Shown here one piece after another: positions 23,517-40,500 of a DNA stretch of 64,000 bases. Source of the stretch: an uncultured delta proteobacterium (lineage in GTDB: Bacteria; Desulfobacterota; Syntrophorhabdia; Syntrophorhabdales; WCHB1-27); the NCBI GenBank assembly GCA_963810935.1, contig CAWEPK010000008.1, positions 767,483-831,482 of the forward strand, in the 5' to 3' direction. Position 1 is the stretch's first letter. The number at the start of each line of letters is the position of its first letter. The translations under genes were made by a program, and so were the position numbers. The notes beneath the pieces are model-generated. The model ran no database searches, was not told where the DNA came from, and saw nothing but the letters and a program-made list of their open reading frames with translations.

Positions 23517-23755
23517 CGGCTTCTTAGGAATCTATATTTTATGTTTAAGACCCGATACGGCAAACAGCAACCGAATTAGTCTGTTAACACAGGCAGTAGC
23601 CGATCTGATTGACAGCGAGGCGGGACATGCATAAGGTAATAACGTACATCCGTGCGTCTACTCTTCGGCAACCTGGTCCGGTAAGTTCTTCGGGCACTAT
23701 TTGAAGACAACAAAAGAAAGTGGCGTTTCAACCGCATCAAGCGTGGAGAAACCAA

Positions 23756-24997
23756 ATGAAGCATTTCGTGAGATGTTTCTTCCTCTGGAGCGCTTTTCTT
23801 TGGGTCCTGGTCTTTGCCGGTTCTTCCGTCTCCCCAGGATGGGCCGCCAAGTGCAACTCCACCCCCCTCTCCCCTGGATTATACCACTACACGATCGACG
23901 GCCAAACGGTCGTTGTTCGCGTGCCTTCGGGCTACTCCGACCAGACGCCCACGCCGGTCCTTCTCGATCTACACGGGGCCGGCTTGAATGGAGATGCCGA
24001 GGAGCTGATATCCGGGTTCGCGCCCCTCTGCGACGAGCACAATTTTATCGGCGTCTGGCCGAGCGGCGCGAACGGACAATGGCGGACCGATATCAACAAC
24101 CCCCCCACGGATATCCAGTACTTACTGGACGTTGTCGACTATATCCGGACGATTGCGAATGTAGACAGGAGCCGGATATACATCATCGGCATCTCCGAAG
24201 GGGCACAGATGACCAACACAATGGTCTGCCAGGCCGCCGATGTCTTTGCGGCGGCAGCGCCCGACTCCTTCCCCCTGACCGAGACCATCGCTCAGTGCAG
24301 GCCCGTCAGACCGGTTTCGGTCATGGAATGGGCCGGTTACGAGGACCCCATAGTCCCGTACAACGGCGGAGGGACCCTGAATGTCCCCCCTGCCCCCCAA
24401 TCTCTCCTTGAATGGTCACAGATAATGGGCTGCACCGGCAATCCTGTCACGACCGCTCCGCCGGACGGCTCGGGGCAGGTTCAAACGTACGAGACATGCA
24501 GCGCAGGGACCGAAGTCGGACTCGGAAGCATACACGGCACCCACGGCCTTTACGCCCAGTTCAATATCCAGGAATATACCTGGGCCTACCTTACCAAGTT
24601 CACCCTGCCCCTTACCCAGGATCAGCTTAACGCGTGCCCCGGTGACCCGAGTCCGGCGTCCGGTGGGGGTGATGGAGGCGGCGGAGGGGGCGGCAGTTGT
24701 TTCATCGCGACGGCTGTCTACGGGTCTTACCTCCACCCGCACGTGGCCGTATTGAAGGACTTCAGGGACAAGCGGCTGCTGACGAATGAGCCGGGCAGGG
24801 CCTTCGTCAGGCTTTACTACCGATACTCCCCTCCCGTGGCCGCCATGATAGATAGGCGCCCCGTTCTCAGGACAGCAGCCCGAGCCGGCCTCACCCCTAT
24901 CGTTTGCGCAGTCAAGCACCCCTACGGTGCGCTGACCTTCGCAATCCTGGCGGTGGGCGCCGTGTGGATAATTCGGAAGAGGATAACAAAGCGATAA
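23756..24997 (+). CDS. Secreted PHB-depolymerase/LpqC-like esterase with C-terminal CFI-box-CTERM region
   Basis: Signal peptide, DLHG oxyanion motif, GISEG nucleophile elbow, Gly linker, CFIATAVYGS..FRD..L..GRAFV..YY..SP and C-terminal TM. Confidence 0.8.
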   Translation: MKHFVRCFFLWSAFLWVLVFAGSSVSPGWAAKCNSTPLSPGLYHYTIDGQTVVVRVPSGYSDQTPTPVLLDLHGAGLNGDAEELISGFAPLCDEHNFIGVWPSGANGQWRTDINNPPTDIQYLLDVVDYIRTIANVDRSRIYIIGISEGAQMTNTMVCQAADVFAAAAPDSFPLTETIAQCRPVRPVSVMEWAGYEDPIVPYNGGGTLNVPPAPQSLLEWSQIMGCTGNPVTTAPPDGSGQVQTYETCSAGTEVGLGSIHGTHGLYAQFNIQEYTWAYLTKFTLPLTQDQLNACPGDPSPASGGGDGGGGGGGSCFIATAVYGSYLHPHVAVLKDFRDKRLLTNEPGRAFVRLYYRYSPPVAAMIDRRPVLRTAARAGLTPIVCAVKHPYGALTFAILAVGAVWIIRKRITKR

Positions 24998-25383: not shown

Positions 25384-26368
25384 TTGAACGCTCTTGTAAC
25401 GGGCGGAACAGGATTTATTGGTAGTCACCTGGTGGACTCTCTCGTGAGCGCGAACTGGGCCGTCCGCTGCCTCGTGCGTAGAAACAGCGGCGGCGCCTCC
25501 TGGCTCCGAGGGCTCCCGATCGAGCGTTGCTCCGGGGATTGCCGTTATTCGACGTCGCTCCGGGAAGCAGTAAAGGGGGTGGATGTCATATTCCATCTGG
25601 CAGGCGCGACCAGTGCGCTCGACGCCCGAACATATTTCGAGGTTAATGCGGTTGGAACCGACAACCTTTTGAGCGCCTGTGCAGAATTCAACCCGCACGT
25701 CAAAGCGTTCGTCTACGTTTCCAGCCAGGCTGCAGCCGGTCCGAGTGCCGGAGTTGCCTGCACCGAGGCGGACCCGTGCGCTCCCGTGTCCGCCTATGGA
25801 CGCAGCAAACGGCGAGGCGAGGAGCTTGCCCTGGGAATGTCCGCAAAGATTCCCGTTGTCGTCATCCGGCCTCCCGCCGTATACGGACCGAGGGACCGGG
25901 GCCTTCTCCCATTGTTCAAGCTTCTCTCATGGGGCATTCAACCACGCCTTGCCCGAAGGGGCCAGCGCTTCAGTCTCTGTTACGTGGAGGACCTGAGTTC
26001 GCGGCCTGCTGCTTGTCGCTGAAAAGGAGGAGGCCCGAGGAGAAATTTTCTTTCTTTCCGACGGGAAGGACTACGGTTGGAAGGAAATAGGCGATGCCTT
26101 CGCCAGGGCTGCCGGACGAAGGGCGACCCGGGATTTTACGGTCCCTGAATCCTTCATCCGGACATACGCCGCCATCGCCGATATGGTCGCGACAGTAAGG
26201 CGCAGGCCGGCGCTCCTCAACAGTGACAAAGTGAAGGAAATGGTCCAGCCGGGCTGGGTTTGCGATAACGGCAAATCGAGAAGATTGCTAGGTTTTGAGC
26301 CGCGCGTGACCCTCGACGAGGGCGCCCGGCTGACTTTCGGATGGTACAAGGAGGCAAAATGGCTTTAG
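25384..26368 (+). CDS. NAD-dependent epimerase/dehydratase-family (extended SDR) reductase, CerR-like; frameshift near 25996
   Basis: LVTGGTGFIG, HLAG, VSSQAAAG, YGRSK; continuation EDLVRGLLL..FGWYKEAKWL in another frame; overlaps spt start. Confidence 0.8.
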
Positions 26369-27574
26369 AAAACGCTCGGTGCACTTATTCACCAGTAGAC
26401 TTGTTCGACAAATGTGCCGGAATGAACGAGTTCGTTCGTTCGTTACGAGAGAGCGGTTGCTATTTTTTCTTCAGGAAGATCGAGTCCGCACAGGATACGG
26501 AGGTCACGATCGACGGCCGGCGGGTCATAATGGCGGGTTCCAATAATTATCTCGGCCTGGCGAGTCATCCCCGCGTCAAGGAGGCGGCTATCCGCGCTGT
26601 GGAGCGATACGGCACGGGCTGCGCGGGCTCGCGCGTCTTGAACGGCAACCTTGACATCCACGAGGAGCTGGAAAGCAAGCTGGCCAAGTTTTTCCGCAAG
26701 GAGGCAGCCCTGGTCTTTGCCGCAGGATACCAGGCGAACCTTGGCATCATTTCCGCGCTGGTCGGCAGGCAAGACAGCGCCGTCATCGACAAATACGACC
26801 ATGCGAGCATCATTGATGGATGCCGCCTTTCTTTCGGCAAGGTGAGAAAATTCGATCACAATAATATCGAGGACCTCGCCAATGTTCTCCGTAACGCAAA
26901 TAGCGGCGGCTGCCTGATTATTGTAGACGGCGTCTTCAGCATGGAGGGCGATATCGCCGACCTGCCCGCGATTACGAAACTCGCTAACGAGTGCGGGGCG
27001 CGGGTGATGGTGGACGATGCACACGGCATCGGTGTTCTGGGCAAAGGGGGAAGGGGCACGGCCGAACATTTCGGCGTGGAAGATGATGTCGATCTCATCA
27101 TGGGGACGTACAGCAAATCGCTGGCCGGAATCGGGGGCTTCGTCGCCGGGGCGGCCGACGTCATCCGGTACATCCGCCATGTCGGCCGTTCAATGCTCTT
27201 CAGCGCCGCCCTGCCGCCGCCGCTCGTCGCGGCAGTGAGTACCGCCCTGGATATCGTCGACGAGGAACCGGAGCTCCGGGAGCGCCTGTGGAAGAACACC
27301 CGAAAGATGCTGGAGGGATTCAGAGAGATGGGTTACGACATCGGCCGCAGCCAGACGCCTATCATCCCGATCATCATAAAGGACAACGCCAAGGTGTACC
27401 AGATGTGCCGGCTCCTTTTCGAGCAGGGCGTTTTTGTCAACCCCGTCATTAGCCCGGCGGTCCCCCCGGGCGAGAGCCCTGCGCACGAGCTATATGGCGA
27501 CGCATACAGATGAGCAGCTCGACCGTATCCTGGAGGCCTTCCGCACAGTGGGCAGGCAGGTGGAAGTAATCTAA
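26359..27574 (+). CDS. spt: Alpha-oxoamine synthase, serine palmitoyltransferase-like; frameshift near 27477
   Basis: GSNNYLGL, GCAGSRVLNG, HASIIDG, DGVFSMEGD, DDAH, PLP-lysine motif GTYSKS; tail LRTSYMATH in another frame. Confidence 0.8.
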
Positions 27575-27596
27575 AAGAACAGGAGGGTTGTGAGCG

Positions 27597-28714
27597 ATGG
27601 GTAATTTGGCCCTATGCGAGGCGACCGAAGAAAAAGAACGCATGCTTTTCGTCCGGTGCCCGTGGGATATTTACTCGGGGGACCGCTACTGGGTCCCGCC
27701 GCTCATACGGGAAACCATCGCCAAGATCAGTCCTAACCACCCCTTTTATTCCCATGCCGACCTGTCGCTCTTCATTGCGAGGAAAAACGGCCGTGTTGTC
27801 GGCCGTGTTGCGGCCATTATCGACCGCCACTACCTTGAGTTCCATGGCCGTAAGACAGGGTTCTTCGGGTTTTTTGAATCTTTACCCGATCCCGATATCG
27901 CCCCGGCGCTCCTGGAAGCGGCGCGGCACTGGCTGAAGGAGCGGGGCATGGAAGAGATGGCCGGACCCATGAACCCTTCGACAAATGATGAATGCGGCCT
28001 GCTGGTGAACGGTTTCGATTCCAGCCCCTGCTTCATGATGCCCTACAACCCGTCTTATTATCCAACGCTGCTGGAAGACTACGGCCTGCGCAAGTCGATG
28101 GACCTGCTGGCTTATGTGGTGGAGGAGCCGTCACGCGGGTTCCGTCGTCTGGAAGCTCTGGCGGAGCGCATCCGCCGAAAGGAGCCGTCTCTCACTGTAC
28201 GGCCTGTCAATCTGAAACGTTTCGATGAGGAGTGCAGAAGGTGAGAGACATCTACAACCAGGCATGGAGCAAGAACTGGGGGTTTGTGCCGTTCACTGAT
28301 GCCGAACTCGAGTATGCGGCCGCTAATTTAAAGCAATTGATTGTCCCGGACCTCTTCCTGTTTGCCTACTTCGGAGAAGAGCCCATCGGTTTCTCCCTCA
28401 CCATGCCCGACTACAACCTTGCCCTGAAACGTATGAACGGGAATGCCGGTCTGCTGGGGACGCTGCGGTTTCTATATTTCTCGCGGAAGATCAGAAGCCT
28501 CCGGGTCATGCTGCTCGGCATAAAGCATGCTTTCCAAAAGAGGGGCGCCGAAGGGCTGCTCATTCTGGAGACGTTCCTGCGGGCCATGGCACGGGGCTAC
28601 CGGAGCGGCGAATGCTCCTGGATTCTGGAGGACAACCTCCTCATGCAGCACGGGATCGAGGCGGTGGGCGGAAAGCAGTACAAGACGTACCGCATTTATC
28701 GAATGCCTATTTAA
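27597..28714 (+). CDS. GNAT-family N-acyltransferase, bacterial ceramide synthase (bCerS/YghO)-like; frameshift near 28232
   Basis: WVPPL, GRVAAI, FFGFFE, GPMNPSTN..GLLV.GF, MPYNP.YY, NWGFVP, SWILEDN, KTYRIY. Confidence 0.8.
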
Positions 28715-28869
28715 ATATCCTGCTGCAAGCAGCAGGATATTAAAGCAAGCGTAGCGCGGCGCCGAGCGGGGAGGCTCCGCGAGCTTTGCTCGTGGAGGGG
28801 GTGCTGAACCCCAATAATTGTCACGGAGCGAAGCGGAAACATCGATCTCCCTGCAGCAAGCTGCAGGGA
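28714..28869. repeat. Two related palindromic hairpins bracketing ~105 bp; IS200/IS605-type end / PATE- or REP-like remnant
   Basis: AATATCCTGCTG-CAAG-CAGCAGGATATT (28714-28741) and TCCCTGCAG-CAAG-CTGCAGGGA (28848-28869). Confidence 0.5.
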
Positions 28870-28945
28870 ATCCACAAGTTGAACAAAGACCGACATCGGT
28901 TTATTGCGCAACGAACGAACTAACGACCATGAGGCTATTTGGGAA

Positions 28946-30262
28946 ATGGTCCCGGTAATTCACAAGCCCATGAATGCCACTGAAGCCCCCGCGCGCTATC
29001 CGGCGCTCACGCTGGACCGGATGCTGCACCTGGCCCGCCACCTGCACGACGGGCAGAGCCGATACCTCGTCACCTTTTCCGGACGCCTCGATACTGAGCG
29101 GATAGCCCGGGCCTTCGAGCTGAGTCTCGATGCCGAGCCTGTCCTGGGTTGCAGGTTCGTCGACCACCCCTGGCGCCCGTACTGGGAACGGCTCCCCTGC
29201 GTGAAACGGGTCTCCCCTCTTTCGATCGTGGAAACGGATAACGAGCATTCAGTGCACGCCTGGCTGGGGGCCCCTCTCGACGCTTCAGCGGGTGTCCAGG
29301 TCCGCGCGTCTCTTTTTAGGAGGTCCACGGAAAAACTCGCAGTCAAACTGAGCCACGAAGCGGCCGATTTCGGAGGGTCGATCGATTACCTCGGTATCCT
29401 AAGCACCATTTACCGGGAGTTGCGGACCAACCCCGCATACGTTCCCCGGCCGCGGACAGCAAGGCTTGGACAGGGCCCGGTGCTGCGCGGCGCGGGCTTC
29501 CGCCAACTGCTGCGAGGCTGCTTTCATTTCTCGGCCCCGAACGCGGGGATTGATTTCGGGGTCTCCGCTGACGGGATTGGGGAGCCGGCCTTCGCCGAGC
29601 GTCACCTCGAGCCTGACGGTTTCCTCCGCATTCGGGAGTACTGCCGCACGCGCGGGACCACAATAAATGAAGTCGCCCTGGCCGCTTTTTATCGCGCCCA
29701 TTTTCAGGTCTTCGCGCCCCCGGCTGGTGCAAAGCTGACTATTCCGATCCCGGTAAACCTTCGCCGTCACCTGCCCGCTGACAGCTCGGCGGGCGTCTGC
29801 AACCTCCCGGCGATATTCTTTGCGGGGGTGAAAGATCAGCGCTTCGATGCCCTGGCCGCGGATGTTCGCCGGCTCATGGCGTCCGCCCGCCTCAACACGC
29901 CCTGGCTCGGGCAAGCCGTTCTGGTCGAGCTGATGTTCCTCCTGCCGTACGCTCTCCTTCGGTGGATAGCCAGGCGGCGTATACCTCGCCAGATCGCATC
30001 AGGGAAGATCTATCCTTACATCTCGAACGACGGGATCATCGACACCCGCCGCTTCGATTTCGGAGATCCTGCGATATGTGACTTCGACACATGGGGCCCG
30101 GTGCCCAACCACCCGCTTCCCACTATCTCCGTTTACTCGGTCGGCGACAAATTAAAGACTTCGATAGCGACCCGGGACCGGCCGAATGGCCGTTGGGCGG
30201 AGCGTCTCCTGGACGCTTATATGCGAGAATTGCCGGGGCAAGCTCCCCCGGCAGCATCTTAG
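28946..30262 (+). CDS. Stand-alone condensation-domain / CoA-dependent acyltransferase, copy 1
   Basis: HxxxD motif LSHEAADFGG, TINEV.LAA, IPVNLRR, VCNL, YISNDG; start uncertain (28904-28970). Confidence 0.78.
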   Translation: MVPVIHKPMNATEAPARYPALTLDRMLHLARHLHDGQSRYLVTFSGRLDTERIARAFELSLDAEPVLGCRFVDHPWRPYWERLPCVKRVSPLSIVETDNEHSVHAWLGAPLDASAGVQVRASLFRRSTEKLAVKLSHEAADFGGSIDYLGILSTIYRELRTNPAYVPRPRTARLGQGPVLRGAGFRQLLRGCFHFSAPNAGIDFGVSADGIGEPAFAERHLEPDGFLRIREYCRTRGTTINEVALAAFYRAHFQVFAPPAGAKLTIPIPVNLRRHLPADSSAGVCNLPAIFFAGVKDQRFDALAADVRRLMASARLNTPWLGQAVLVELMFLLPYALLRWIARRRIPRQIASGKIYPYISNDGIIDTRRFDFGDPAICDFDTWGPVPNHPLPTISVYSVGDKLKTSIATRDRPNGRWAERLLDAYMRELPGQAPPAAS

Positions 30263-30272
30263 GACAGGGTGC

Positions 30273-31610
30273 ATGAACGCTGAATCCAGAGAAATGCACA
30301 AGGCCATAAAAGCCACGGAGGCCCCCAGACGCTATCCGGCGCCTGCGCTCGATCGAATTCTGCACCTGGCCCGCTGCCTGCACGACGGGCAGAGCCGAAG
30401 CGTGGTCACCTTTTCCGGCAGCCTCGATACGGAGCGGATGGCCCGCGCTTTCCGACTCAGCCTCGATGCCGAGCCTGTCCTGGGCTGCCGGTTCGTTGCC
30501 CACCCCTGGCGCCCGTACTGGGAACGGCTCCCGGATGCGAAGCTGGTCTCCCCCCTGTCGGTCGTGGAAACGGGAAGCGAGAATTCACTCCACGACTGGC
30601 TGGCGGGTCCTCTCGATGCTTCAGCGGACATCCAGGTCCGCGCTTGCCTTTTTCGGGGTTCCAAAGAAAAACTGGCTGTCAAGCTGAGCCACGAAGCAGC
30701 CGATGCGAGCGGCATGCTCGACTACCTCAACCTCGTCGCCGCTATTTACCGCGAGCTGCGGACCAATCCCGGCTACGTTCCCTTGCGACGGGAAGGAAGG
30801 CTCGGGCAGGGCCCGGTGCTGCGCAGCGCCGGCTTCCGCCAACTGCTCCGGGGTTGCCTTCATTTCTCCTCCCCCGGCCCGGGGGTCGATTCACCTGTCG
30901 AAACGCTTGGGGAGCCGGTCTTCGCCTTGCGCCGCATAGAGCCTGAAACCGTCGCCCGCATCCTTGAATACTGCCGCAAGCATGACGTAACGGTCAATGA
31001 AGTGGTTTTGGCCGCCTTCTATCGTGCCGAATTCGCGAGGTCGGCTGCACCGCCCTACACGACGCTCACGATTCCGGTCCCGATCAACCTTCGCCGGTTC
31101 CTGCCTGCGGGCAGCAAGTGGGGTGTTTGCAACCTCTCGGCGGTCTTCTTTGCGGGTATGAGAAATCAGAGCTTCGACGCCATGGTTGCATCTGTTCACC
31201 GGCTGATGGCGTCCGCCCGCTCCGATACGCCCTGGCTCGGGCAGGCCGTGCTGCTTGAGCTGATGTTCCTCCTGCCCTATGCCGTTATCGCACGTCTGGT
31301 CAGGAGGTCGATACTCCGCCAAATTGCATCCGGAAGGCTCTATCCCTACATCGCGAATCACGGGATTATCGATACGGCCGGGATCGATTTCGAAGGAGTC
31401 CCGGTAAGCGATTTCGAAACGTGGAGCCCGGTCCCCAACCACACCGTCCCCATGCTCGGCGTCTATACGGTCGGCGGCGCACTCATGGTGGCGATGGTCA
31501 CCAGGGACCGGCCGAACGGCAGGAAGGCAGACCAGTTCCTGGACGCTTACTTAAAAGAGTTGCCGGGCCAATGTTTCCCGACCGCATATAAGGAGAGGGA
31601 TACCGCATGA
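30273..31610 (+). CDS. Stand-alone condensation-domain / CoA-dependent acyltransferase, copy 2 (tandem paralogue)
   Basis: LSHEAADASG, TVNEV.LAA, VPINLRR, YIANHG; long identical blocks shared with copy 1. Confidence 0.78.
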   Translation: MNAESREMHKAIKATEAPRRYPAPALDRILHLARCLHDGQSRSVVTFSGSLDTERMARAFRLSLDAEPVLGCRFVAHPWRPYWERLPDAKLVSPLSVVETGSENSLHDWLAGPLDASADIQVRACLFRGSKEKLAVKLSHEAADASGMLDYLNLVAAIYRELRTNPGYVPLRREGRLGQGPVLRSAGFRQLLRGCLHFSSPGPGVDSPVETLGEPVFALRRIEPETVARILEYCRKHDVTVNEVVLAAFYRAEFARSAAPPYTTLTIPVPINLRRFLPAGSKWGVCNLSAVFFAGMRNQSFDAMVASVHRLMASARSDTPWLGQAVLLELMFLLPYAVIARLVRRSILRQIASGRLYPYIANHGIIDTAGIDFEGVPVSDFETWSPVPNHTVPMLGVYTVGGALMVAMVTRDRPNGRKADQFLDAYLKELPGQCFPTAYKERDTA

Positions 31611-32419
31611 ATCATGGGATTCATTCAAGATCGGCCCAGCCGCCGGGTTTCCTCAGGCCCGCGACTCGCGCAATCCTTTTGCCGCTCGTAGTTCTTTTGC
31701 TGGTGTTGCTCGCGTACGGGCCGTCGAGCGCCCAGGACGCGCACGGCATCGTGGATGCGGCGGTACGCTACTACCGTGGAAAGTCCTCGGTCTGCGTCAT
31801 CGATATGAAGATCTCACGCCCCGGTTGGAGCCGCGAGATGTCGATGAGGGCCTGGACCAAGGGGCAGAAAGACAGCCTCTTCACCATCGTTGCCCCGCCG
31901 AAAGACGAGGGTAACGGGACGTTGAAGAAGGGGCGGGAAATGTCGACGTACAACCCGAAGGTCAACCGGGTCATCAAGCTGCCCCCCTCGATGATGTCCC
32001 AGTCTTGGATGGGCTCCGACTTCTCTAATGAAGACCTCGCCAAGTCCGACAGCATAGTCGATGACTACACGCACAGCCTCGAAGGCACCGAAATCCACGA
32101 AGGGAAGACGGTCTACGTAATCAAGTGCACACCGAAGCCGGGCGCGGCCGTCGTCTGGGGGGCGCAAAGGCTGAAGATCAGGGAGGACCGTATCCTTTTG
32201 CTTGAGGAATTTTACGATGAGGATGGGAAGCTGGTCAAAGCCCTTGCGGGTTCGGAGATCCGACAGATGGGGGGCAAGCTGTTCCCAAAAGTCTGGACGA
32301 TGCGGAAAGGGACCGAAGGAACGGAATTCACCGTCGTGACGTACAAGGACATCCGTTTCGATGTGGACATTCCCAACTACTTCTTCAGAGAATCTTCCCT
32401 GAAGAGCGCCTGGAGGTAG
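31607..32419 (+). CDS. LolA-like outer membrane lipoprotein-sorting protein
   Basis: Signal peptide; LPPSMMSQSWMGSDFSNEDL signature. Confidence 0.85.
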   Translation: MNHGIHSRSAQPPGFLRPATRAILLPLVVLLLVLLAYGPSSAQDAHGIVDAAVRYYRGKSSVCVIDMKISRPGWSREMSMRAWTKGQKDSLFTIVAPPKDEGNGTLKKGREMSTYNPKVNRVIKLPPSMMSQSWMGSDFSNEDLAKSDSIVDDYTHSLEGTEIHEGKTVYVIKCTPKPGAAVVWGAQRLKIREDRILLLEEFYDEDGKLVKALAGSEIRQMGGKLFPKVWTMRKGTEGTEFTVVTYKDIRFDVDIPNYFFRESSLKSAWR

Positions 32420-32423
32420 CACG

Positions 32424-33653
32424 TTGCTCTACGTCCGGATGGCCTGGCGTAACATATGGCGCAACCCCAGGCGATCTCTTTTGACTATGGGGGCAGTCGC
32501 CTTTGCCACGGTGCTTCTCGTTTTCATGCTGTCGCTGCAATTCGGGAACTACGCGACGATGATCGATTCGGCGGTGAAGCTGCGCACCGGCCATCTGCAG
32601 GTCCAGGCAAAGGGATATATGGAACGCAGGGACATCCGTCTGGTAGTCTCCGACCCTGCGTCGGTAGCGGGTATGCTTGGCCGCCTGCCCGGCGTGAGCG
32701 CTTATGCTTTTCGCGCCAGCGCCTTCGCGCTGGTTTCGTCCAAGAACCGGACCTACGGCACGGTCGTGACCGGGATCAGCGACCGCGAGGCAACCGTCTC
32801 GACCCTTTCGCGGACCCTCCGTCAGGGGCAATTCCTCTCGGCAGCCGATGGCGGACAGGCCCTGGTGGGAAGCATCCTGTCGAAGAACCTTCAGGTGAAG
32901 CCCGGGGACGAGGTGGCCGTCCTCGGACAGGCGTGGGATGGCTCCGTAGCGGCTACGGTGGTTCGCGTCAAAGGCATTATCAGCTCAGGCCAGGACGATT
33001 TTGACCGCATCAGCTTCTACCTGCCTTTGCCGTATTTCCAGAGTGTCTTCGCTATGGACAACTCGGTGCACGAGGTCGTCGCAACTGTCAGGACGCTGGA
33101 TGATGTGCCGCGGATCAAGCAGGCGCTGGGAGAGATGGTCCGTAAGGGCCCTAACCCGGACCTCAGGGTGCTCGACTGGAAGGAACTTACGCCCGGCCTC
33201 ATGGAAGTCATCACTTTCGACCTGGTGGCCGGTCTTCTGTTTTATCTCGTCTTGATCGTCGTCGTGGCTTTCAGCATCCTCAATACCTTTTTCATGGCGA
33301 TCTTCGAGCGGAAAAGGGAATTTGGCGTCATGATGGCCCTGGGCAGCCGGCCTGCCCACATCACGAAACTCCTATCAATCGAGTCCATGATGATCATCGC
33401 CATGGGTTCGGCGGCCGGCATCATCTTCGGAATCATCGTAACGCTCTATTTTGAATCACACGGCATCACGATTCCGGGCGCGGCCGAGCTGGCCCGGCTC
33501 TATGGCGTCCCCGAGCGCATGTTTCCGAGACTCTCGTTTCTTTCTCTTGCAATCGGCTCCGGCCTTGTGGTCGCAATCAGCATTGTCACGACTGTGATCC
33601 CGGTCTTCAAGGTCCGGCGTCTCCGTCCGGTGCAGGCGATGGGGGCGTCATGA
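32424..33653 (+). CDS. ABC transporter permease, LolC/E-FtsX-like
   Basis: MAWRNIWRNPRRS, NTFFMAIFERKREFG motifs. Confidence 0.9.
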   Translation: MLYVRMAWRNIWRNPRRSLLTMGAVAFATVLLVFMLSLQFGNYATMIDSAVKLRTGHLQVQAKGYMERRDIRLVVSDPASVAGMLGRLPGVSAYAFRASAFALVSSKNRTYGTVVTGISDREATVSTLSRTLRQGQFLSAADGGQALVGSILSKNLQVKPGDEVAVLGQAWDGSVAATVVRVKGIISSGQDDFDRISFYLPLPYFQSVFAMDNSVHEVVATVRTLDDVPRIKQALGEMVRKGPNPDLRVLDWKELTPGLMEVITFDLVAGLLFYLVLIVVVAFSILNTFFMAIFERKREFGVMMALGSRPAHITKLLSIESMMIIAMGSAAGIIFGIIVTLYFESHGITIPGAAELARLYGVPERMFPRLSFLSLAIGSGLVVAISIVTTVIPVFKVRRLRPVQAMGAS

Positions 33654-34873
33654 GGTTTTTCGGGCTTGCATGGCGCAACGTGTGGCGGACCCCCCGCAGG
33701 ACGCTCGTGGTCCTCATGGCCGCTACCATTGCAGTCTGGAGCATGATCGTCTCCAGTGCCCTGATGAGGGGCATCACCGATCAGATGGTCAGCAACGGGA
33801 TTGCAACGCTCACCGGTCATATTCAGATCCACGAACGGGGGTATCGGAACGATCCTGCAGTTGAAACGAGCATGAAGGACCCGGCCGCGCTGGTTAAGGC
33901 CATCGAGCCTCATCTGCCCCCCGGCGCCTTACGGGCCGACCGGGTCCGCGTCAATGCAATCGCGAGCAACGCGCGCCACTCGGAGGGGGTCACACTGGTC
34001 GGGGTCGACCCGGGCAAGGAAAAACAAATCTCGTTCATCGCGCGGTCCGTCACTTCCGGAAGCTATCTCCAACCGGACGACGGCTACAGCGTTCTGATCG
34101 GCAAAGCATTGATGGACAGGCTGGAAACCCACATCGGGCGCAAGCTGATACTGATGTCCCAGGACACGGACAAAGAGATCGCCTCGCGCGCCTTCCGCAT
34201 CTCGGGCGTTTTCAGGGCGGAGCTCGAGGCGACGGAGAGGCAGTTTGTCTTCATCACCCTTCCGGCGGCCAGGGACATGCTGAAGATGAAACAGTCTTTG
34301 TCCGAAGTCAGCGTGGTCCTGCCCGACCGGGCGAAGGTGGAGGAGACCGCGGCCGCTTTGCGCTCGGCCCTCCCTTCCGGCTACGAAGTCCATACATGGC
34401 AGGAGCTGCTGCCGCTGGCTACGGCGATGTTGAAGATGTACGAAGCGCTCATATACCTGTGGTATCTGGTCGCCTTCATTGCCATGGGCTTCGGTATTGT
34501 CAATACGATCCTCATGGCCGTGCTCGAACGCACCCGCGAGTTCGGGCTTCTGCGGGCGCTCGGGATGAGGCCCGGATGGATCGTGGAGGAGGTCTTGACG
34601 GAGTCGCTCCTGCTGCTCGTCATGGGCACGGGACTCGGGACCTGCCTGGGAATGCTTTGTGCGGCCGTCCTCTCTTATACGGGCATCGATCTTTCGATCG
34701 TGGCAGGCGGCGTAAAGACGTTCGGGCTTCCCCGCGTCATATACCCGGTCGTGCGGCTGCCGGACGTCATTCTGGCGAACGTGGTCGTCTTTGTACTCGG
34801 GCTGCTCGTCAGCGCCTATCCGGCCGTCAAAGCTTCGCGCTTCACGCCGGTGAAGGCCATGGCCCACACGTAA
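33650..34873 (+). CDS. ABC transporter permease, LolC/E-FtsX-like
   Basis: LAWRNVWR, NTILMAVLERTREFG, YPAVKASR. Confidence 0.9.
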   Translation: MRFFGLAWRNVWRTPRRTLVVLMAATIAVWSMIVSSALMRGITDQMVSNGIATLTGHIQIHERGYRNDPAVETSMKDPAALVKAIEPHLPPGALRADRVRVNAIASNARHSEGVTLVGVDPGKEKQISFIARSVTSGSYLQPDDGYSVLIGKALMDRLETHIGRKLILMSQDTDKEIASRAFRISGVFRAELEATERQFVFITLPAARDMLKMKQSLSEVSVVLPDRAKVEETAAALRSALPSGYEVHTWQELLPLATAMLKMYEALIYLWYLVAFIAMGFGIVNTILMAVLERTREFGLLRALGMRPGWIVEEVLTESLLLLVMGTGLGTCLGMLCAAVLSYTGIDLSIVAGGVKTFGLPRVIYPVVRLPDVILANVVVFVLGLLVSAYPAVKASRFTPVKAMAHT

Positions 34874-34895
34874 CTTTTTGCGATGAGGAGCGTCG

Positions 34896-35570
34896 ATGAC
34901 GATCATTGAGTGTGAAAACCTTAAGAAGACTTACCACCAGGGCACCCAGGAGATTACGGCCCTCGACGGTGTCAGCCTGGCTATCGGAAAAGGGGAGTTT
35001 CTCGCGCTGGCCGGACCCTCGGGATCGGGCAAGACCACGCTGCTCAATATCATCGGAGGACTTGACCATTCCGATGAGGGCCGGGTGGCGCTGGACGGGA
35101 CCGCCCTGAACGGCATGAGCGCCTCCGGGCTCGCCGACCTGCGCTTGCGCAAGGTGGGCTTCGTCTTTCAGGCCTTTAACCTGATTCCCGTCCTCTCTGC
35201 CCTCGAGAACGTGGAATTTGTCATGCTTCTTCAGGGGGTGCCCGCCACCGAGCGGGCGGAGAGGGCCCGGACCATCCTGGACGAAGTCGGTCTCCAGGGC
35301 ATGCACAGACGGCGGCCGGCCGAGCTATCCGGCGGCCAGCAGCAGCGGGTCGCTGTCGCCAGGGCTATCGTAGGAAACCCATCCATCGTCCTGGCCGACG
35401 AGCCGACGGCGAACCTCGATTCCAAGACCGGCGCGCGGCTGCTCGCCATAATGAAGGAAATGAACCTGCGGCGAAACATCACCTTTATTTTTTCCACCCA
35501 TGACCGAATGGTCATGGAATACGCCAGCCGCCTGGTGCGGCTAAAGGATGGGAAAATTGCTGATGAATAA
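34896..35570 (+). CDS. ABC transporter ATP-binding protein, LolD-like
   Basis: GPSGSGKT, LSGGQQQRVA, LADEPTANLD. Confidence 0.93.
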   Translation: MTIIECENLKKTYHQGTQEITALDGVSLAIGKGEFLALAGPSGSGKTTLLNIIGGLDHSDEGRVALDGTALNGMSASGLADLRLRKVGFVFQAFNLIPVLSALENVEFVMLLQGVPATERAERARTILDEVGLQGMHRRRPAELSGGQQQRVAVARAIVGNPSIVLADEPTANLDSKTGARLLAIMKEMNLRRNITFIFSTHDRMVMEYASRLVRLKDGKIADE

Positions 35571-36946
35571 ATCAGAGAGCCTATTCATCAAAGCAGGGTG
35601 TATCTCACTAACGGTGGCCGCGGCGCTCCTTGCCGTCTGGCTGCCAATCGCTGCAGGTCAGGTCGCATCGGCCGAACCGTCCACAGATGAAACACTTTCC
35701 ATCCCGGCGTCTGCTAAACCGCCCGGGGAAGAGAAGTTCTTCAGGCTGAGTGGAGAGATAAAGGGCATCGGCTCGGCATCATGGCCCGGAAGCGGGACGC
35801 TGCTCCAGCCGTCGGGCGACAAGACGTACTATGACGGCCTCCTCGAAGGCCGGCTCAAGGGCCACTTTTTTTTCACCGATTGGGCGAACCTGGAGGTCCA
35901 CGATTTGATCGGAGGTACAGGCGGCGACACCAGGCAGGCCGCCATCCAAACGTCCTTCCCCCTCTACCTCAACCAGGGCGACATCCCCGGCAGCCCCAGT
36001 TCGGATAAACGGCAGTTGCTCAATATGTCCTGGACCTGGGGCGGGCGTGATGAATTTGTTGGTTACGACCGGGTGGACAGGTTGGCGCTCACGCTTAAGC
36101 AGGACCCGGTCATCGCGACTCTCGGAAGGCAGGCGATTACCTGGGGCAACGGTATGGTTTTCAATCCCATGGACCTGATCAATCCCTTCGGGCCTACGGA
36201 CGTGGTTCGCGAATACAAGGTCGGCCAGGATATGGCTTTCGCCCAGGTCTCCGCGGGAGGTTACGGCAACATTCAGACTCCTCTGGGCGCCGAGGAGGGA
36301 TCCGAACACGGGAATAATTCAGGAGGACCAATCGGCCTTTGCCACCAAGGCCCGCTTCGGGGCGGGAAATGCGGATTTCGACGTCATGGTCGCGAAGAAT
36401 TTCGGCAGCAAGATCATCGGCGTGGGTGGGAACGGCCACCTTGGCGACGCGGTATGGCGCGCCGACATAACATACACCACGCCCCAGGACGTATTTTCGC
36501 AACAGCCTTATGTTTCGGGAGTGACCAACCTCGATTACTCATGGAACTGGTGGGGCAAGAACTGGTACGGGTTCATTGAGGCCTTTTACAGCGGCGTCGG
36601 CAAGAACGATTACGGAGTGGCTCTCACCAACCCGTACATCCAGCAAAAAATCAGCGAAGGCGTACTCTTCACGCTTGCCAAATGGTATGGGGACGCAAGC
36701 GTCCGCGTCGAGCTGCACCCGCTGTTTAACGCCTACCTGACGGTTATCACCAATGTAGAAGACCCTTCATGGATTGTCCAGCCCAAGGTGAGCTGGGACT
36801 TTGCGCGCAGCTTCAGGCTCACTGTGTGGGCAAATATTGCCTTCGGCCGGAACGGATCGGAATACGGTGGTTTTACCGTGCCGGGCACGAACCTGAAGCA
36901 ACAGCCCCCGAGCGGGGCCTTTACGTGGATAAGCTATTATTTCTAA
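35563..36946 (+). CDS. Putative outer-membrane beta-barrel protein; frameshift near 36277
   Basis: Signal peptide, LGRQAITWG..FNPMDL motif, alternating beta-strand pattern, C-terminal ...SYYF. Confidence 0.7.
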
Positions 36947-36985
36947 TGTTAGTATCATGGAACCGGGCAAAGAACTCCGAGGAGG

Positions 36986-37453
36986 TTGAAAAACATTCTC
37001 ATGATAACCGGGGGCCGGAATGGAAACGATAGAAAAGCCATTGCTGAGCTTTTGCGCATGCCGGAAACAATGGTTGGCGTCGATCGATACTTGTATGCCC
37101 CGGCTTTCCCGGATGAAGTAAAGGCCTGGAAGCTTATCGGACAATCCGACCCCGCTTTGCGTAGTTATCAGAATGCCCTTTATTATCCGCCGACTGCATT
37201 AATGAGCCTGCTCGATCTCGTAACCGAATTGCTTTTCAGGCTCAGGTTCAACCAGACGGACGCGATGCCTGCGCTGATAGCTAACGAGTCAAGATTTCGA
37301 AAACCGGTCATACCTGAAAATGAAATACTCATACAGGTAAAGCTGCTGCGCAATTACAAAGGAAGAATCGGTATATTCTCGGGTGTCATCGCCAACCGTG
37401 AGGGAGATATCGTTGCGGAAAATCTCTCCAAAGGGACAATTATCAGGACCTGA
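36986..37453 (+). CDS. Hotdog-fold FabZ/FabA-like protein, divergent
   Basis: VDR near N-terminus and RFRKPVIP..I.I.V motif; lacks canonical HFP..PGV..E. Confidence 0.55.
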   Translation: MKNILMITGGRNGNDRKAIAELLRMPETMVGVDRYLYAPAFPDEVKAWKLIGQSDPALRSYQNALYYPPTALMSLLDLVTELLFRLRFNQTDAMPALIANESRFRKPVIPENEILIQVKLLRNYKGRIGIFSGVIANREGDIVAENLSKGTIIRT

Positions 37454-40408: not shown

Positions 40409-40500
40409 ACGTTTCCCTCCTTTTTGCTCTCTCACACGGTCCGTCATTCCTTGATTTGCGCCTCCCGCGCTGCCGGCTGCCCGCACTGTCAATATGCAGT

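What the first reader, a model, noticed from the sequence alone, without database searches (positions are those of the whole stretch)
25384..37453. Ceramide pathway followed by two stand-alone condensation acyltransferases and a dedicated Lol-like export set: candidate undescribed modified-sphingolipid system
Seen: a same-strand, mostly overlapping run of extended-SDR reductase, alpha-oxoamine synthase (GTYSKS), GNAT acyltransferase, two HxxxD condensation-fold proteins, a LolA-like protein, two LolC/E-type permeases, a LolD-type ATPase, an OM barrel and a FabZ-like protein. Established: Spt + GNAT ceramide synthase (bCerS) + reductase (CerR) is the bacterial ceramide route defined in Caulobacter. 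HxxxD CAT/condensation-fold enzymes (PapA5, WS/DGAT, NRPS C domains) form esters or amides. Inference: the cluster makes a ceramide, acylates it further (e.g. O-acyl-ceramide) and delivers it to or through the outer membrane by its own route. I am not aware of this combination being characterised.
Basis: partly seen in the sequence, partly recalled or inferred. Interest (0 to 1): 0.85.

Follow-up and report, generated by a model that had tools for sequence, protein, structure and literature searches.

The report
Sphingolipid operon fused to export cassette
An uncultured soil bacterium has joined the three standard genes for ceramide-type lipids to two extra fat-adding enzymes and to a widespread, unstudied five-gene envelope transporter, which hints at an extra-acylated sphingolipid carried to the outer membrane; none of this has been tested at the bench.

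Summary
The gene run is real. Five apparent breaks (SDR, 3' end of the synthase, GNAT, barrel) are assembly indels, because short-read contigs from four soil runs correct every one.

- **Core genes.** The synthase groups with solved serine palmitoyltransferases (429 bits, against 284 for the next, a BioF/Kbl-type enzyme). An SDR lies just upstream in all 11 relatives' loci examined. A GNAT lies directly downstream in 35 of 48 Spt-positive genomes of the phylum sample. This part is the known CerR-Spt-bCerS type.
- **Lol-like set.** It is not dedicated to sphingolipids. It is an autonomous five-gene cassette found in 56 of 301 phylum genomes. None of 20 fetched loci outside the family had an Spt gene nearby, and there is no genome-level link to Spt. 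This scan has noted the cassette at least 16 times elsewhere.
- **HxxxD family.** It stands alone in 73 of 74 loci.
- **Local coupling.** The C2 stop overlaps the LolA-like start (ATGA). A sister genus has Spt followed directly by the cassette. Metagenome contigs carry a GNAT-remnant plus C-gene block inside a cassette.

Best reading (0.5): a lineage-specific composite operon that makes an additionally acylated ceramide-type lipid and exports it. This is a new variant of a known kind.

The parts
25384..26368 (+). Extended SDR reductase (CerR-like). It is read in two frames in the window (25384-26022 and 25997-26368) because of one extra base near 25995/25996.
   Evidence: PF01370, E 2.9e-34. 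The C-terminal half lies in the second frame. One letter is left out at 25995 in contigs of 3 runs. An SDR lies directly upstream of the Spt-like gene in all 11 relatives' loci examined.
26341..27574 (+). Spt-like alpha-oxoamine synthase. The window ORF stops at 27513 because two bases are missing, at 27461 and 27477. The conserved C-terminus continues in the frame that ends at 27574.
   Evidence: GTYSKS motif. NF047600 (CFB-type Spt) is the best model at 518 bits, cut-off 640. PDB: Spt 3a2b/8guh 429 bits, against 284 for a BioF/Kbl-type enzyme, 255 for cysteate acyltransferase and 246-249 for Kbl. Insertions at these places in contigs of 3 runs.
27597..28714 (+). GNAT-family acyl-CoA N-acyltransferase (bCerS-like), one gene of about 373 aa. 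It is split in the window at about 28233 by a missing base.
   Evidence: Both halves align collinearly on single 373-386-aa homologues. C is put in after 28232 in 2 runs. A homologue lies directly downstream of Spt in 35 of 48 Spt-positive genomes. Homologues carry PF00583.
28715..28900 (.). Dispersed intergenic repeat with palindromic units. It fills the GNAT-to-C1 gap.
   Evidence: 57 matches in G000. Depth 52-56 against about 5, with many joints and loose ends. Palindromes visible in the sequence.
28946..30262 (+). C1, a stand-alone condensation-fold (HxxxD) acyltransferase of 438 aa.
   Evidence: 66% identical to C2. HEAAD motif. Weak Condensation and PapA_C hits, below cut-off.
30273..31610 (+). 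C2, a stand-alone condensation-fold (HxxxD) acyltransferase of 445 aa. Its stop overlaps the LolA-like start (ATGA).
   Evidence: Model pLDDT 90.5. Foldseek top hits are 8s6l, NRPS C domains, CDA-C1 and PapA5 1q9j. Profile against PDB: PapA5 5e-8, WS/DGAT 7e-6. ATGA overlap.
31607..32419 (+). LolA_like periplasmic carrier. It has a signal peptide and no lipobox cysteine.
   Evidence: PF17131, 158 bits. PDB 4z48, 3buu, 3bk5. N-terminal sequence.
32424..33653 (+). FtsX/MacB-type permease 1.
   Evidence: PF02687 and PF12704. lolCE model 100 bits, cut-off 362.
33650..34873 (+). FtsX/MacB-type permease 2.
   Evidence: PF12704 and PF02687. lolCE model 124 bits, cut-off 362.
34896..35570 (+). ABC ATPase (LolD/MacB-type).
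   Evidence: PF00005, E 4.5e-34. TIGR02211 232 bits, cut-off 308.
35548..36946 (+). Outer-membrane beta-barrel of about 466 aa, unnamed family. It is split in the window at about 36277 by one extra base.
   Evidence: L012 has one intact 466-aa frame. One letter is left out at 36277 in 3 runs. The model of the L012 copy has pLDDT 74, is nearly all strands, and hits porins, OccK and AlgE at TM about 0.5. It has a signal peptide and a C-terminal aromatic residue.
36986..37453 (+). Small hotdog-fold protein with weak FabZ/ApeP-like similarity.
   Evidence: PF07977, E 0.009. PDB FabZ, E 0.036. Atlas lead ApeP-like, 0.93. Homologues were found only beside the Spt-linked cassettes of G002 and G019.

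Best explanation
This is a lineage-specific composite operon built from three separable blocks.

**Block 1, the core.** It is the standard bacterial sphingolipid core.
- The Spt-like synthase condenses an amino acid (most likely serine) with an acyl thioester.
- The GNAT N-acylates the product.
- The extended SDR reduces the 3-oxo group.
- All three lack signal peptides, so a ceramide-type lipid is made on the cytoplasmic side.

**Block 2, the acyltransferases.** Two tandem, cytoplasmic, PapA5/NRPS-C-like HxxxD acyltransferases (C1, C2) add further acyl groups. The simplest scheme is esterification of the two free hydroxyls of the ceramide, or of a hydroxy-acyl chain, which would give a wax-like poly-acylated sphingolipid.

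**Block 3, the export cassette.**
- It hands the lipid to a soluble LolA-fold carrier.
- The carrier delivers it to a private outer-membrane barrel of about 18 strands.
- The trailing hotdog protein may be a leftover of, or helper for, dedicated acyl-chain synthesis. In G019 it is followed by a ketosynthase and a ketoreductase.

**What is shown:** gene identities, folds, intactness, synteny and coupling.
**What is inferred:** every substrate, the order of steps, the position and type (ester or amide) of the extra acylations, and that the cassette's cargo is this lipid.
For: **Core**
- Spt grouping.
- SDR-Spt adjacency in all 11 relatives' loci examined.
- Spt followed directly by a GNAT in 35 of 48 Spt-positive genomes; a GNAT homologue somewhere in 46 of 48.
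- Among 40 relatives, 9 have both genes, 2 only the GNAT, 2 only Spt and 27 neither.
- Published pathway and clustering (PMC11087976, PMC11334938, PMC11324152; passages only).

**Intactness**
- All frame breaks are corrected by independent short-read contigs.

**C1 and C2**
- Invariant H and D and a confident condensation fold.
- Tandem pairs also share a contig in three other assemblies (P0002/P0008, P0004/P0006, P0005/P0009).
- A 78%-identical GNAT (P0171) reports the same longest-contig length, 24335 bp, as the pair P0005/P0009.

**Coupling to the cassette**
- ATGA overlap between C2 and the LolA-like gene, and gaps of 4-23 nt or overlaps through the cassette.
- G019, in another genus, has SDR-Spt-LolA-FtsX-FtsX-ABC-barrel-hotdog with different flanks.
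- The Spt genes of G000 and G019 form their own clade, support 99/100.
- L172 and L173 carry a GNAT-remnant plus C block inserted between the ABC and barrel genes of a cassette, on the opposite strand.

**Cassette anatomy**
- Signal peptides, barrel model and LolA-fold hits.
Against: - The cassette is mostly unrelated to sphingolipids. None of the 20 fetched loci outside the family has Spt, SDR, GNAT or C genes within the stretch held.
- Only 7 of 55 cassette-positive genomes are Spt-positive, against about 8.8 expected by chance.
- Elsewhere the cassette sits beside TetR regulators in 4 of 13 loci, as efflux systems do.
- The C-family is solitary, in unrelated contexts, in 73 of 74 genome loci, including monoderm bacteria and archaea. 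Membership says nothing about its substrate.
- C1 and C2 occur in only 2 of 22 genomes of the family. G019 does without them.
- In L172 the GNAT is decayed while the C gene is intact.
- No ACP or acyl-activating gene lies in the operon.
- The Spt score is below NCBIfam's curated cut-off, 518-557 against 640.
- Homology of the GNAT and SDR to the characterised Caulobacter proteins could not be tested directly.
- The only experimentally implicated bacterial sphingolipid transporter is Lpt-like, not Lol-like (bioRxiv 10.64898/2026.04.12.717747, passages).
- No RNA run holds the locus.
Confidence: 0.5

Rival explanations
1. Three modules that are neighbours but work independently. The core makes ordinary ceramide. 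C1 and C2 are general wax-ester/acyl-ester synthases for another alcohol. The cassette is a general TetR-type hydrophobe or lipid exporter whose cargo is not a sphingolipid.
For: - The cassette and the C-family each occur on their own in almost all other genomes.
- There is no genome-level association between cassette and Spt: 7 observed against about 8.8 expected.
- TetR lies beside the cassette in 4 of 13 other loci.
- The related DUF1302/LolA-superfamily system AmeABCD exports monoterpenes (PMC6394551, passages).
Against: - ATGA translational overlap between C2 and the LolA-like gene.
- Spt is directly followed by the cassette in a second genus, with different flanks.
- A C gene is inserted inside a cassette in L172 and L173.
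- No TetR gene lies in this operon.
Confidence: 0.25
2. The same operon logic with different chemistry. Either the Spt-like enzyme uses another amino acid (alanine, glycine or cysteate, giving 1-deoxy or sulfono bases), or C1 and C2 form amides like NRPS starter C domains. The exported product would then be an acylated aminolipid other than an O-acyl-ceramide.
For: - Spt is below the equivalog cut-off in the window and in three intact homologues.
- Cysteate acyltransferase is also a clear relative, at 255 bits.
- Structural neighbours of C2 include the lipoinitiation domain CDA-C1 and dehydrating C domains as well as PapA5.
- Black Sea lipidomics links Desulfobacterota to 1-deoxy and sulfono-1-deoxy ceramides with very long 'fatty acid' parts (PMC11334938, passages).
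Against: - The best solved relatives are true serine palmitoyltransferases, by a margin of 145 bits.
- The GNAT already provides the N-acylation step.
- Homologous Spt genes in the same family (69-71% identical) sit beside a PAP2_3 (AUR1-like) head-group transferase, which needs a 1-hydroxyl.
Confidence: 0.15
3. A decaying, non-functional cluster in which the frameshifts in four genes are real mutations.
For: The window shows frame breaks in the SDR, the 3' end of Spt, the GNAT and the barrel.
Against: - Contigs of two or three of the four runs laid restore each frame; the other runs either do not cover the place or, at two places, show no change.
- L012 carries different indels, and agrees with the corrections at or within a few bases of these places.
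Confidence: 0.03

Closest known systems
Caulobacter crescentus ceramide pathway Spt / bCerS (CC_1154) / CerR (CC_1164)
   Same: A soluble Spt-type PLP enzyme, an N-acyltransferase and an NAD-type reductase are encoded together. The gene trio is widespread in bacteria (PMC11087976, PMC11324152, PMC11334938; passages). The SDR-Spt-GNAT order is shared with many genomes of this phylum.
   Different: There is no dedicated ACP or acyl-ACP synthetase gene here. The SDR has no visible signal peptide, whereas CerR is reported to be periplasmic. C1, C2 and the cassette are additions.
LptF2/LptG2/LptC2 with LptB, the sphingolipid transporter of Caulobacter (bioRxiv 10.64898/2026.04.12.717747; PMC11324152)
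   Same: A paralogue of a housekeeping envelope ABC system is encoded inside a sphingolipid locus and proposed to move the lipid from the inner to the outer membrane.
   Different: That system is Lpt-type and borrows LptB. This one is Lol/MacB-type, with its own ATPase, a soluble LolA-fold carrier and its own barrel. It is not specific to sphingolipid producers.
Mycobacterial PDIM assembly and export: PapA5 with DrrABC, MmpL7 and the lipoprotein LppX
   Same: A stand-alone condensation-fold enzyme esterifies the two hydroxyls of a long-chain diol to a wax. An ABC transporter and a lipid-binding carrier take it to the outer membrane (PMC3544749, passages). PapA5 is a sequence and fold relative of C1 and C2.
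   Different: Similarity to PapA5 is remote: 14% identity and below family cut-offs. There is no PKS or Mas partner and no MmpL. The ABC type differs (FtsX/MacB, not Drr). The organism is a diderm with a barrel. That LppX has a LolA-like fold is recalled and was not checked here.
LolCDE-LolA(-LolB) lipoprotein sorting
   Same: Two different FtsX-type permeases with MacB periplasmic domains, a LolD-like ATPase and a LolA-fold periplasmic protein.
   Different: The permeases score 100-124 bits against a cut-off of 362. A true LolCE lies elsewhere in the genome at 381 bits. The carrier is PF17131, not the LolA family proper. A barrel stands in place of LolB.
AmeABCD of Castellaniella defragrans and DUF1302/DUF1329 cassettes (PMC6394551)
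   Same: An outer-membrane barrel and a LolA-superfamily periplasmic protein work with an inner-membrane pump to export hydrophobic molecules. The LolA-like protein here hits the same solved structures that the paper names: 4Z48, 3BUU and 3BK5.
   Different: That pump is a proton-driven HAE3 RND protein; this one is an ABC machine. The barrel here has only one marginal DUF1302 hit, in one homologue (E 0.013).

Membership tests
Bacterial serine palmitoyltransferase (alpha-oxoamine synthase family) | PLP-binding lysine in the GTxSKS motif, and the class I/II aminotransferase fold | tested here: met
   GTYSKS is in the translation. PF00155, E 8.7e-55.
Bacterial serine palmitoyltransferase (alpha-oxoamine synthase family) | Closer to characterised Spt than to BioF, Kbl, ALAS, CqsA or cysteate acyltransferase | tested here: met
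   PDB: Spt 3a2b/8guh 429 bits; next are a BioF/Kbl-type enzyme at 284, cysteate acyltransferase at 255, Kbl at 246-249 and BioF at 190-198. The NCBIfam top model is the CFB-type Spt, by more than 100 bits.
Bacterial serine palmitoyltransferase (alpha-oxoamine synthase family) | Reaches NCBIfam's curated equivalog cut-off | tested here: not met
   518 bits for the window. Intact homologues give 525 (G019), 556 (G024) and 557 (G010). The cut-off is 640.
Bacterial serine palmitoyltransferase (alpha-oxoamine synthase family) | Uses serine and a long-chain acyl thioester | not testable with these tools
   This needs an enzyme assay or lipid analysis.
Bacterial ceramide synthase bCerS | Acyl-CoA N-acyltransferase (GNAT) fold, soluble, about 370 aa | tested here: met
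   Homologues of 373-386 aa. PF00583 is found in the Spt-adjacent homologues, E 1e-7 to 4e-7. Sources name them 'acyl-CoA N-acyltransferase'. The window's two halves alone give no Pfam hit.
Bacterial ceramide synthase bCerS | Encoded next to, or co-occurring with, spt | tested here: met
   Directly downstream on the same strand in 35 of 48 Spt-positive genomes, present elsewhere in 11, and not found in 2. However, 46 further genomes have family members without a close Spt.
Bacterial ceramide synthase bCerS | Sequence homology to the characterised Caulobacter CC_1154 / CCNA_01212 | not testable with these tools
   No reference sequence could be fetched. The defining paper is not held. There is no NCBIfam model hit and no solved structure.
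Ceramide reductase CerR | Extended SDR with an NAD(P) glycine motif, encoded beside spt | tested here: met
   TGGTGFIG motif and PF01370. Directly upstream of Spt in all 11 relatives' loci. The nearest named lipid reductase models, OleD and HpnA, hit only weakly.
Ceramide reductase CerR | Periplasmic location, as reported for Caulobacter CerR | tested here: inconclusive
   No N-terminal signal peptide is visible; the frame opens straight into the Rossmann motif. It is not known whether location is a defining feature.
Condensation / CAT-fold acyltransferases (PapA5, WS/DGAT, NRPS C domains) | Catalytic HxxxD in a two-lobed condensation fold | tested here: met
   H140 and D144 are invariant in 33 sequences. 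The model has pLDDT 90.5. Foldseek E values 5e-21 to 1e-19 to 8s6l, SrfA-C, CDA-C1 and PapA5.
Condensation / CAT-fold acyltransferases (PapA5, WS/DGAT, NRPS C domains) | Passes the curated thresholds of PapA5, WS/DGAT or Pfam Condensation | tested here: not met
   PF00668 15 bits (cut-off 30.6). PF16911 16-28 bits (cut-off 30). NF006787 22-23 bits (cut-off 396). TIGR02946 22 bits (cut-off 310). This is a distinct family of the superfamily.
LolCDE-LolA lipoprotein pathway | LolC/E and LolD equivalogs and a LolA-family carrier | tested here: not met
   TIGR02212 100 and 124 bits (cut-off 362). TIGR02211 232 bits (cut-off 308). A true LolCE lies at G000 C3, 381 bits. The carrier is PF17131 only.
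Uncharacterised LolA_like / 2x FtsX / ABC / barrel cassette | Five genes in this order with a private barrel | tested here: met
   All five genes are present in 14 of 20 fetched loci from other families; most of the remaining six are cut by contig ends. Found in 56 of 301 genomes of the phylum. Barrel fold.

The most novel reading that the evidence does not exclude
The operon reveals a cargo class for a widespread orphan envelope machine. In this lineage the LolA-like/MacB-type/barrel cassette would be a Lol-like route, distinct from the Lpt-like route of Caulobacter, that carries sphingolipids to the outer membrane or surface. The two PapA5-like enzymes would make a previously undescribed PDIM-like di-O-acyl (tri- or tetra-acyl) ceramide wax in a Gram-negative anaerobe.
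Probability: 0.22. Interest if true: 0.75.

Novelty: new variant of a known kind. Interest (0 to 1): 0.55.

Why it matters
How bacteria move sphingolipids to the outer membrane is barely known. One 2026 preprint implicates Lpt paralogues in Caulobacter, and a 2024 paper stated that no transporter had been identified.

Separately, the five-gene LolA-like/FtsX/ABC/barrel cassette is common in many phyla and has no known cargo. An operon in which that cassette is translationally coupled to lipid-building genes gives a concrete, testable cargo hypothesis for the cassette.

It also points to a candidate new lipid class, ceramide with extra acyl chains. Such a lipid could be looked for in soils and in environmental lipidomes, where unusually long 'fatty acid' parts of sphingolipids have been reported.

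If the blocks turn out to be independent neighbours, the locus is an ordinary sphingolipid cluster beside an ordinary efflux-type module.

Tried and rejected
- **Pseudogene reading.** Rejected: the frame breaks are assembly indels.
- **The 232-nt gap as a promoter region or operon boundary.** It is a dispersed repeat. The promoter and terminator scan gave nothing above shuffles: 6 promoter-like sites against 4.1 expected, and no convincing terminator in the gap.
- **Inferring the C-family's substrate from its neighbours elsewhere.** 69 neighbouring proteins from 17 loci showed no recurrent partner.
- **Genome-level co-occurrence of cassette and Spt.** None: 7 observed against about 8.8 expected.
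- **Direct comparison of the GNAT and SDR with the characterised Caulobacter enzymes.**
  - The defining paper is not held.
  - No paper held all three terms bCerS, GNAT and Caulobacter, and the search with CCNA_01212 listed nothing useful.
  - There is no NCBIfam model and no solved relative.
- **Atlas look-ups.** These gave leads only: a Bacteroidota-rich hypothetical family for the GNAT N-half and ApeP-like for the hotdog.
- **Expression.** No RNA run holds the stretch.
- **Context of the closest C-pair homologues** (contigs of 257375 and 40784 bp). This could not be seen because the look-up tool for encoding contigs is closed. Only the coincidence of contig length (24335 bp) links P0171 with P0005/P0009.
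- **Literature.** Searches for Spt with LolA-type transport and for bacterial O-acyl or acyl-ceramides listed no paper describing this gene combination.
- **Earlier notes by place.** None.

Full report
**Source.** The window is contig C8:767483-831482 of a 4.06-Mb genome in 21 contigs, 93% complete and 7% contaminated. The nearest named relatives of its proteins are Syntrophorhabdaceae and other 'delta proteobacterium' metagenome bins. The stretch is held by four soil-metagenome runs of one study.

**Observation.** Searches confirm the reported run on the + strand:
- SDR, 25384-26368
- alpha-oxoamine synthase, 26341-27513
- GNAT-type gene, 27597-28714
- two HxxxD proteins, 28946-30262 and 30273-31610
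- LolA_like, 31607-32419
- two FtsX/MacB_PCD permeases, 32424-33653 and 33650-34873
- ABC ATPase, 34896-35570
- barrel, 35548-36946
- hotdog protein, 36986-37453

The flanks are unrelated. Upstream lie a RecQ helicase, a cytochrome c and an esterase with a CFI-box C-terminal domain. Downstream lie convergent TRAP-transporter genes.

**Frame breaks are assembly errors.** In the window the SDR, the GNAT and the barrel each fall into two frames, and the last ~30 residues of the synthase are out of frame.
- Comparison with the same-genus locus L012 (92-94% identity over 14.9 kb) shows single-base differences at or within a few bases of these places. L012 also carries many indels of its own.
- Logan contigs of the four runs settle the matter (table 4):

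| Place | Change in the contigs | Runs showing it |
|---|---|---|
| 25995 | one letter left out | X1, X2, X3 |
| 27461 | C put in | X2, X3, X4 |
| 27477 | T put in | X2, X3, X4 |
| 28232 | C put in | X2, X4 |
| 36277 | one letter left out | X1, X2, X4 |

- The only other indel listed is in the intergenic repeat (an A put in behind 28902, in one run), and none lies in C1, C2 or the other transporter genes. The genes are therefore intact in the population.
- The 232-nt gap before C1 is a dispersed repeat, with 57 matches in the genome and tenfold higher depth in two runs. It is no argument for a separate transcription unit.

**The core genes.**
- *Synthase.* The best NCBIfam model is the CFB-type serine palmitoyltransferase, at 518 bits. 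This is below the 640 cut-off but more than 100 bits above every BioF, Kbl or ALAS model. Intact homologues behave the same way, at 525-557 bits. Against solved structures it scores 429 bits with Spt 3a2b/8guh, 284 with the next entry (a BioF/Kbl-type enzyme), 255 with a cysteate acyltransferase and 246-249 with Kbl.
- *SDR.* An SDR lies directly upstream of the Spt-like gene in all 11 relatives' loci examined.
- *GNAT.* Its two halves align collinearly on single 373-386-aa homologues. Sources name these 'acyl-CoA N-acyltransferase'.
- *Phylum sample.* In 300 genomes of the phylum, 48 have a close Spt (E <= 1e-110). By my reading of the coordinates, 35 of these have a GNAT homologue directly downstream on the same strand, 11 have one elsewhere, and 2 have none at the threshold. 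A further 46 genomes have family members without a close Spt, so the family is broader than this role.
- *Literature.* This is the arrangement described as Spt/bCerS/CerR (PMC11087976, PMC11324152, PMC11334938; passages read).
- *Limit.* Direct homology to the Caulobacter enzymes could not be tested.

**Two kinds of Spt locus in this family**.
- Type A occurs in six genomes of four genera. It has nearly identical Spt sequences and the order SDR-Spt-PAP2_3, then ACP-KS-MBL further downstream. The GNAT lies about 19-24 kb away beside PKS-like genes.
- Type B occurs in G000, G002 and G019. Its Spt forms its own clade (support 99/100), sister (89/99) to the SDR-Spt-GNAT trios of other families, and it is joined to the Lol-like cassette and the hotdog gene.
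- No genome searched has both types.

**The HxxxD proteins.**
- C1 and C2 are 66% identical.
- The family is small. There are 46 hits at E <= 0.001 among the 8000 candidates scored, and 93 stretches in the collection of 185,579 species genomes.
- H140 and D144 are invariant.
- The C2 model is confident (pLDDT 90.5) and is a complete two-lobed condensation fold. The nearest structures are 8s6l, NRPS C domains including the lipoinitiation domain CDA-C1, and PapA5. By sequence profile, PapA5 scores 5e-8 and WS/DGAT 7e-6. All curated family thresholds are missed.
- Neither protein has a signal peptide.
- The fold does not tell ester from amide formation.
- Of 74 genome loci, only L012 has Spt, GNAT or cassette genes nearby. 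The others, which include Chloroflexota, Bacillota, Coriobacteriia and archaeal bins, show no recurrent neighbour.
- Within the family of 22 genomes, only G000 and G002 have C1 and C2.

**The transport genes.**
- The permeases and the ATPase are Lol/MacB-like but below the Lol cut-offs. A true LolCE lies elsewhere in the genome, at 381 bits.
- The carrier has a cleavable signal peptide without a lipobox. It hits the LolA-superfamily structures 4z48, 3buu and 3bk5.
- The barrel was modelled from the intact L012 copy (pLDDT 74). It is nearly all strands and resembles 16-18-strand porins, OccK channels and AlgE at TM about 0.5. It has a signal peptide and a terminal aromatic residue.
- The five genes form a module of their own. 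A LolA-like homologue (E <= 1e-20) occurs in 56 of 301 genomes of the phylum.
- Of 20 loci fetched from other families, 14 show all five genes; most of the others are cut by contig ends. None has an Spt, SDR, GNAT or C gene in the stretch held.
- Only 7 of the 55 positive genomes are also Spt-positive, against about 8.8 expected.
- Elsewhere a TetR gene lies directly beside the cassette in 4 of 13 loci, and a VTT/DedA gene in 3 of 13.
- Earlier notes of this scan describe the same cassette in at least 16 other genomes as uncharacterised. I used them only as leads, and checked the AmeABCD paper myself.

**Evidence that the blocks are nevertheless coupled here.**
1. The C2 stop overlaps the LolA-like start (ATGA). 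Spacing through the cassette is 4-23 nt or overlapping.
2. G019, in another genus, has SDR-Spt followed after about 45 nt by LolA-FtsX-FtsX-ABC-barrel-hotdog. A ketosynthase comes next, with a ketoreductase and a distant GNAT on the other strand. Its flanks are different, with an integrase upstream.
3. Two metagenome contigs, L172 and L173, carry a C homologue (43-44% identical) preceded by decayed GNAT fragments. This block is inserted between the ABC and barrel genes of a cassette, on the opposite strand. This is a second, differently built association of the GNAT-C block with the cassette.
4. A 78%-identical GNAT (P0171) reports the same longest-contig length, 24335 bp, as the C pair P0005/P0009.

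**Mechanism proposed.** The cytoplasmic steps are Spt, then N-acylation by the GNAT, then 3-oxo reduction by the SDR. This order is as proposed for Caulobacter and was not tested here. C1 and C2 then add further acyl groups. The ABC machine extracts the lipid, the LolA-fold protein carries it, and it passes to the barrel.

The nearest functional picture is mycobacterial PDIM. There PapA5 esterifies a diol, and an ABC transporter and a carrier lipoprotein export the wax (PMC3544749, passages; the LolA-like fold of LppX is recalled). Ceramide likewise offers two hydroxyls, and there are two paralogous enzymes. This match is suggestive but is inference only.

**Literature on transport and on the combination.**
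- The published bacterial sphingolipid transporter candidates are Lpt paralogues (bioRxiv 10.64898/2026.04.12.717747 and PMC11324152, passages).
- PMC11087976 stated in 2024 that no transporter was known.
- My searches listed no paper on this gene combination.

**Verdict.**
- The ceramide core is an ordinary member of a known kind.
- The local coupling is real and recurs in a second arrangement, so an additionally acylated, exported sphingolipid is the best single reading. I put it at about 0.5.
- Interest is moderate. The locus offers a testable cargo hypothesis for a common orphan cassette and a candidate new lipid, in an uncultured organism and without any expression or chemical data.

Noticed in passing
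window 28715-28900, and 56 other places in G000: A dispersed intergenic repeat family with units of about 100-170 bp and near-perfect palindromes. It has 57 matches in the genome and is strongly over-represented in the soil runs.
   Followed up: partly
window 25995, 27461, 27477, 28232, 28902, 36277: Six single-base assembly indels in 13 kb, relative to short-read contigs. Other split genes in the window may be artefacts as well, for example the AMP-binding gene at 40994-42100 with the overlapping frame 40456-41055.
   Followed up: partly
L164, L165, L166, L167, L168, L169 (G010, G017, G003, G008, G013, G009): 'Type A' sphingolipid loci of the same family: SDR-Spt, and in the two loci annotated (L164, L166) a PAP2_3 (AUR1-like) gene next, with ACP, ketosynthase and metallo-beta-lactamase-fold genes further downstream. 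The Spt sequences are almost identical across four genera. The GNAT lies 19-24 kb away, beside PfaD-like, KS-AT, KR and PPTase genes in the one locus annotated (L102).
   Followed up: partly
L103 (G037): An SDR-Spt-GNAT trio embedded among ketosynthase and chain-length-factor-like genes, three B12-binding proteins (two with a radical-SAM domain hit), an alpha/beta hydrolase, a GT2 glycosyltransferase and an LpxL-like acyltransferase. This is a larger unusual-lipid cluster.
   Followed up: no
L036 and L046 (Firmicutes and Syntrophomonas bins); L020, L021, L022 (archaeal bins): Six copies of the HxxxD family within about 11 kb in each of two syntroph bins. Single copies occur in Heimdallarchaeota and Methanocellaceae bins.
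   Followed up: no
L140, L146, L147, L154; L141, L142, L147: In other families the LolA-like/FtsX/ABC/barrel cassette has a TetR regulator directly beside it (4 of 13 loci). A VTT/DedA-domain membrane protein lies nearby in 3 of 13.
   Followed up: no
window 23720-24997: A PHB-depolymerase-family esterase with a CFI-box-CTERM sorting domain (NF041770, 101 bits), 387 nt upstream of the operon on the same strand. It is conserved in L012 but not in G019.
   Followed up: partly
L172 3-2054 (minus strand): The cassette barrel in this metagenome contig carries an N-terminal extension of about 300 residues. I did not characterise it.
   Followed up: no
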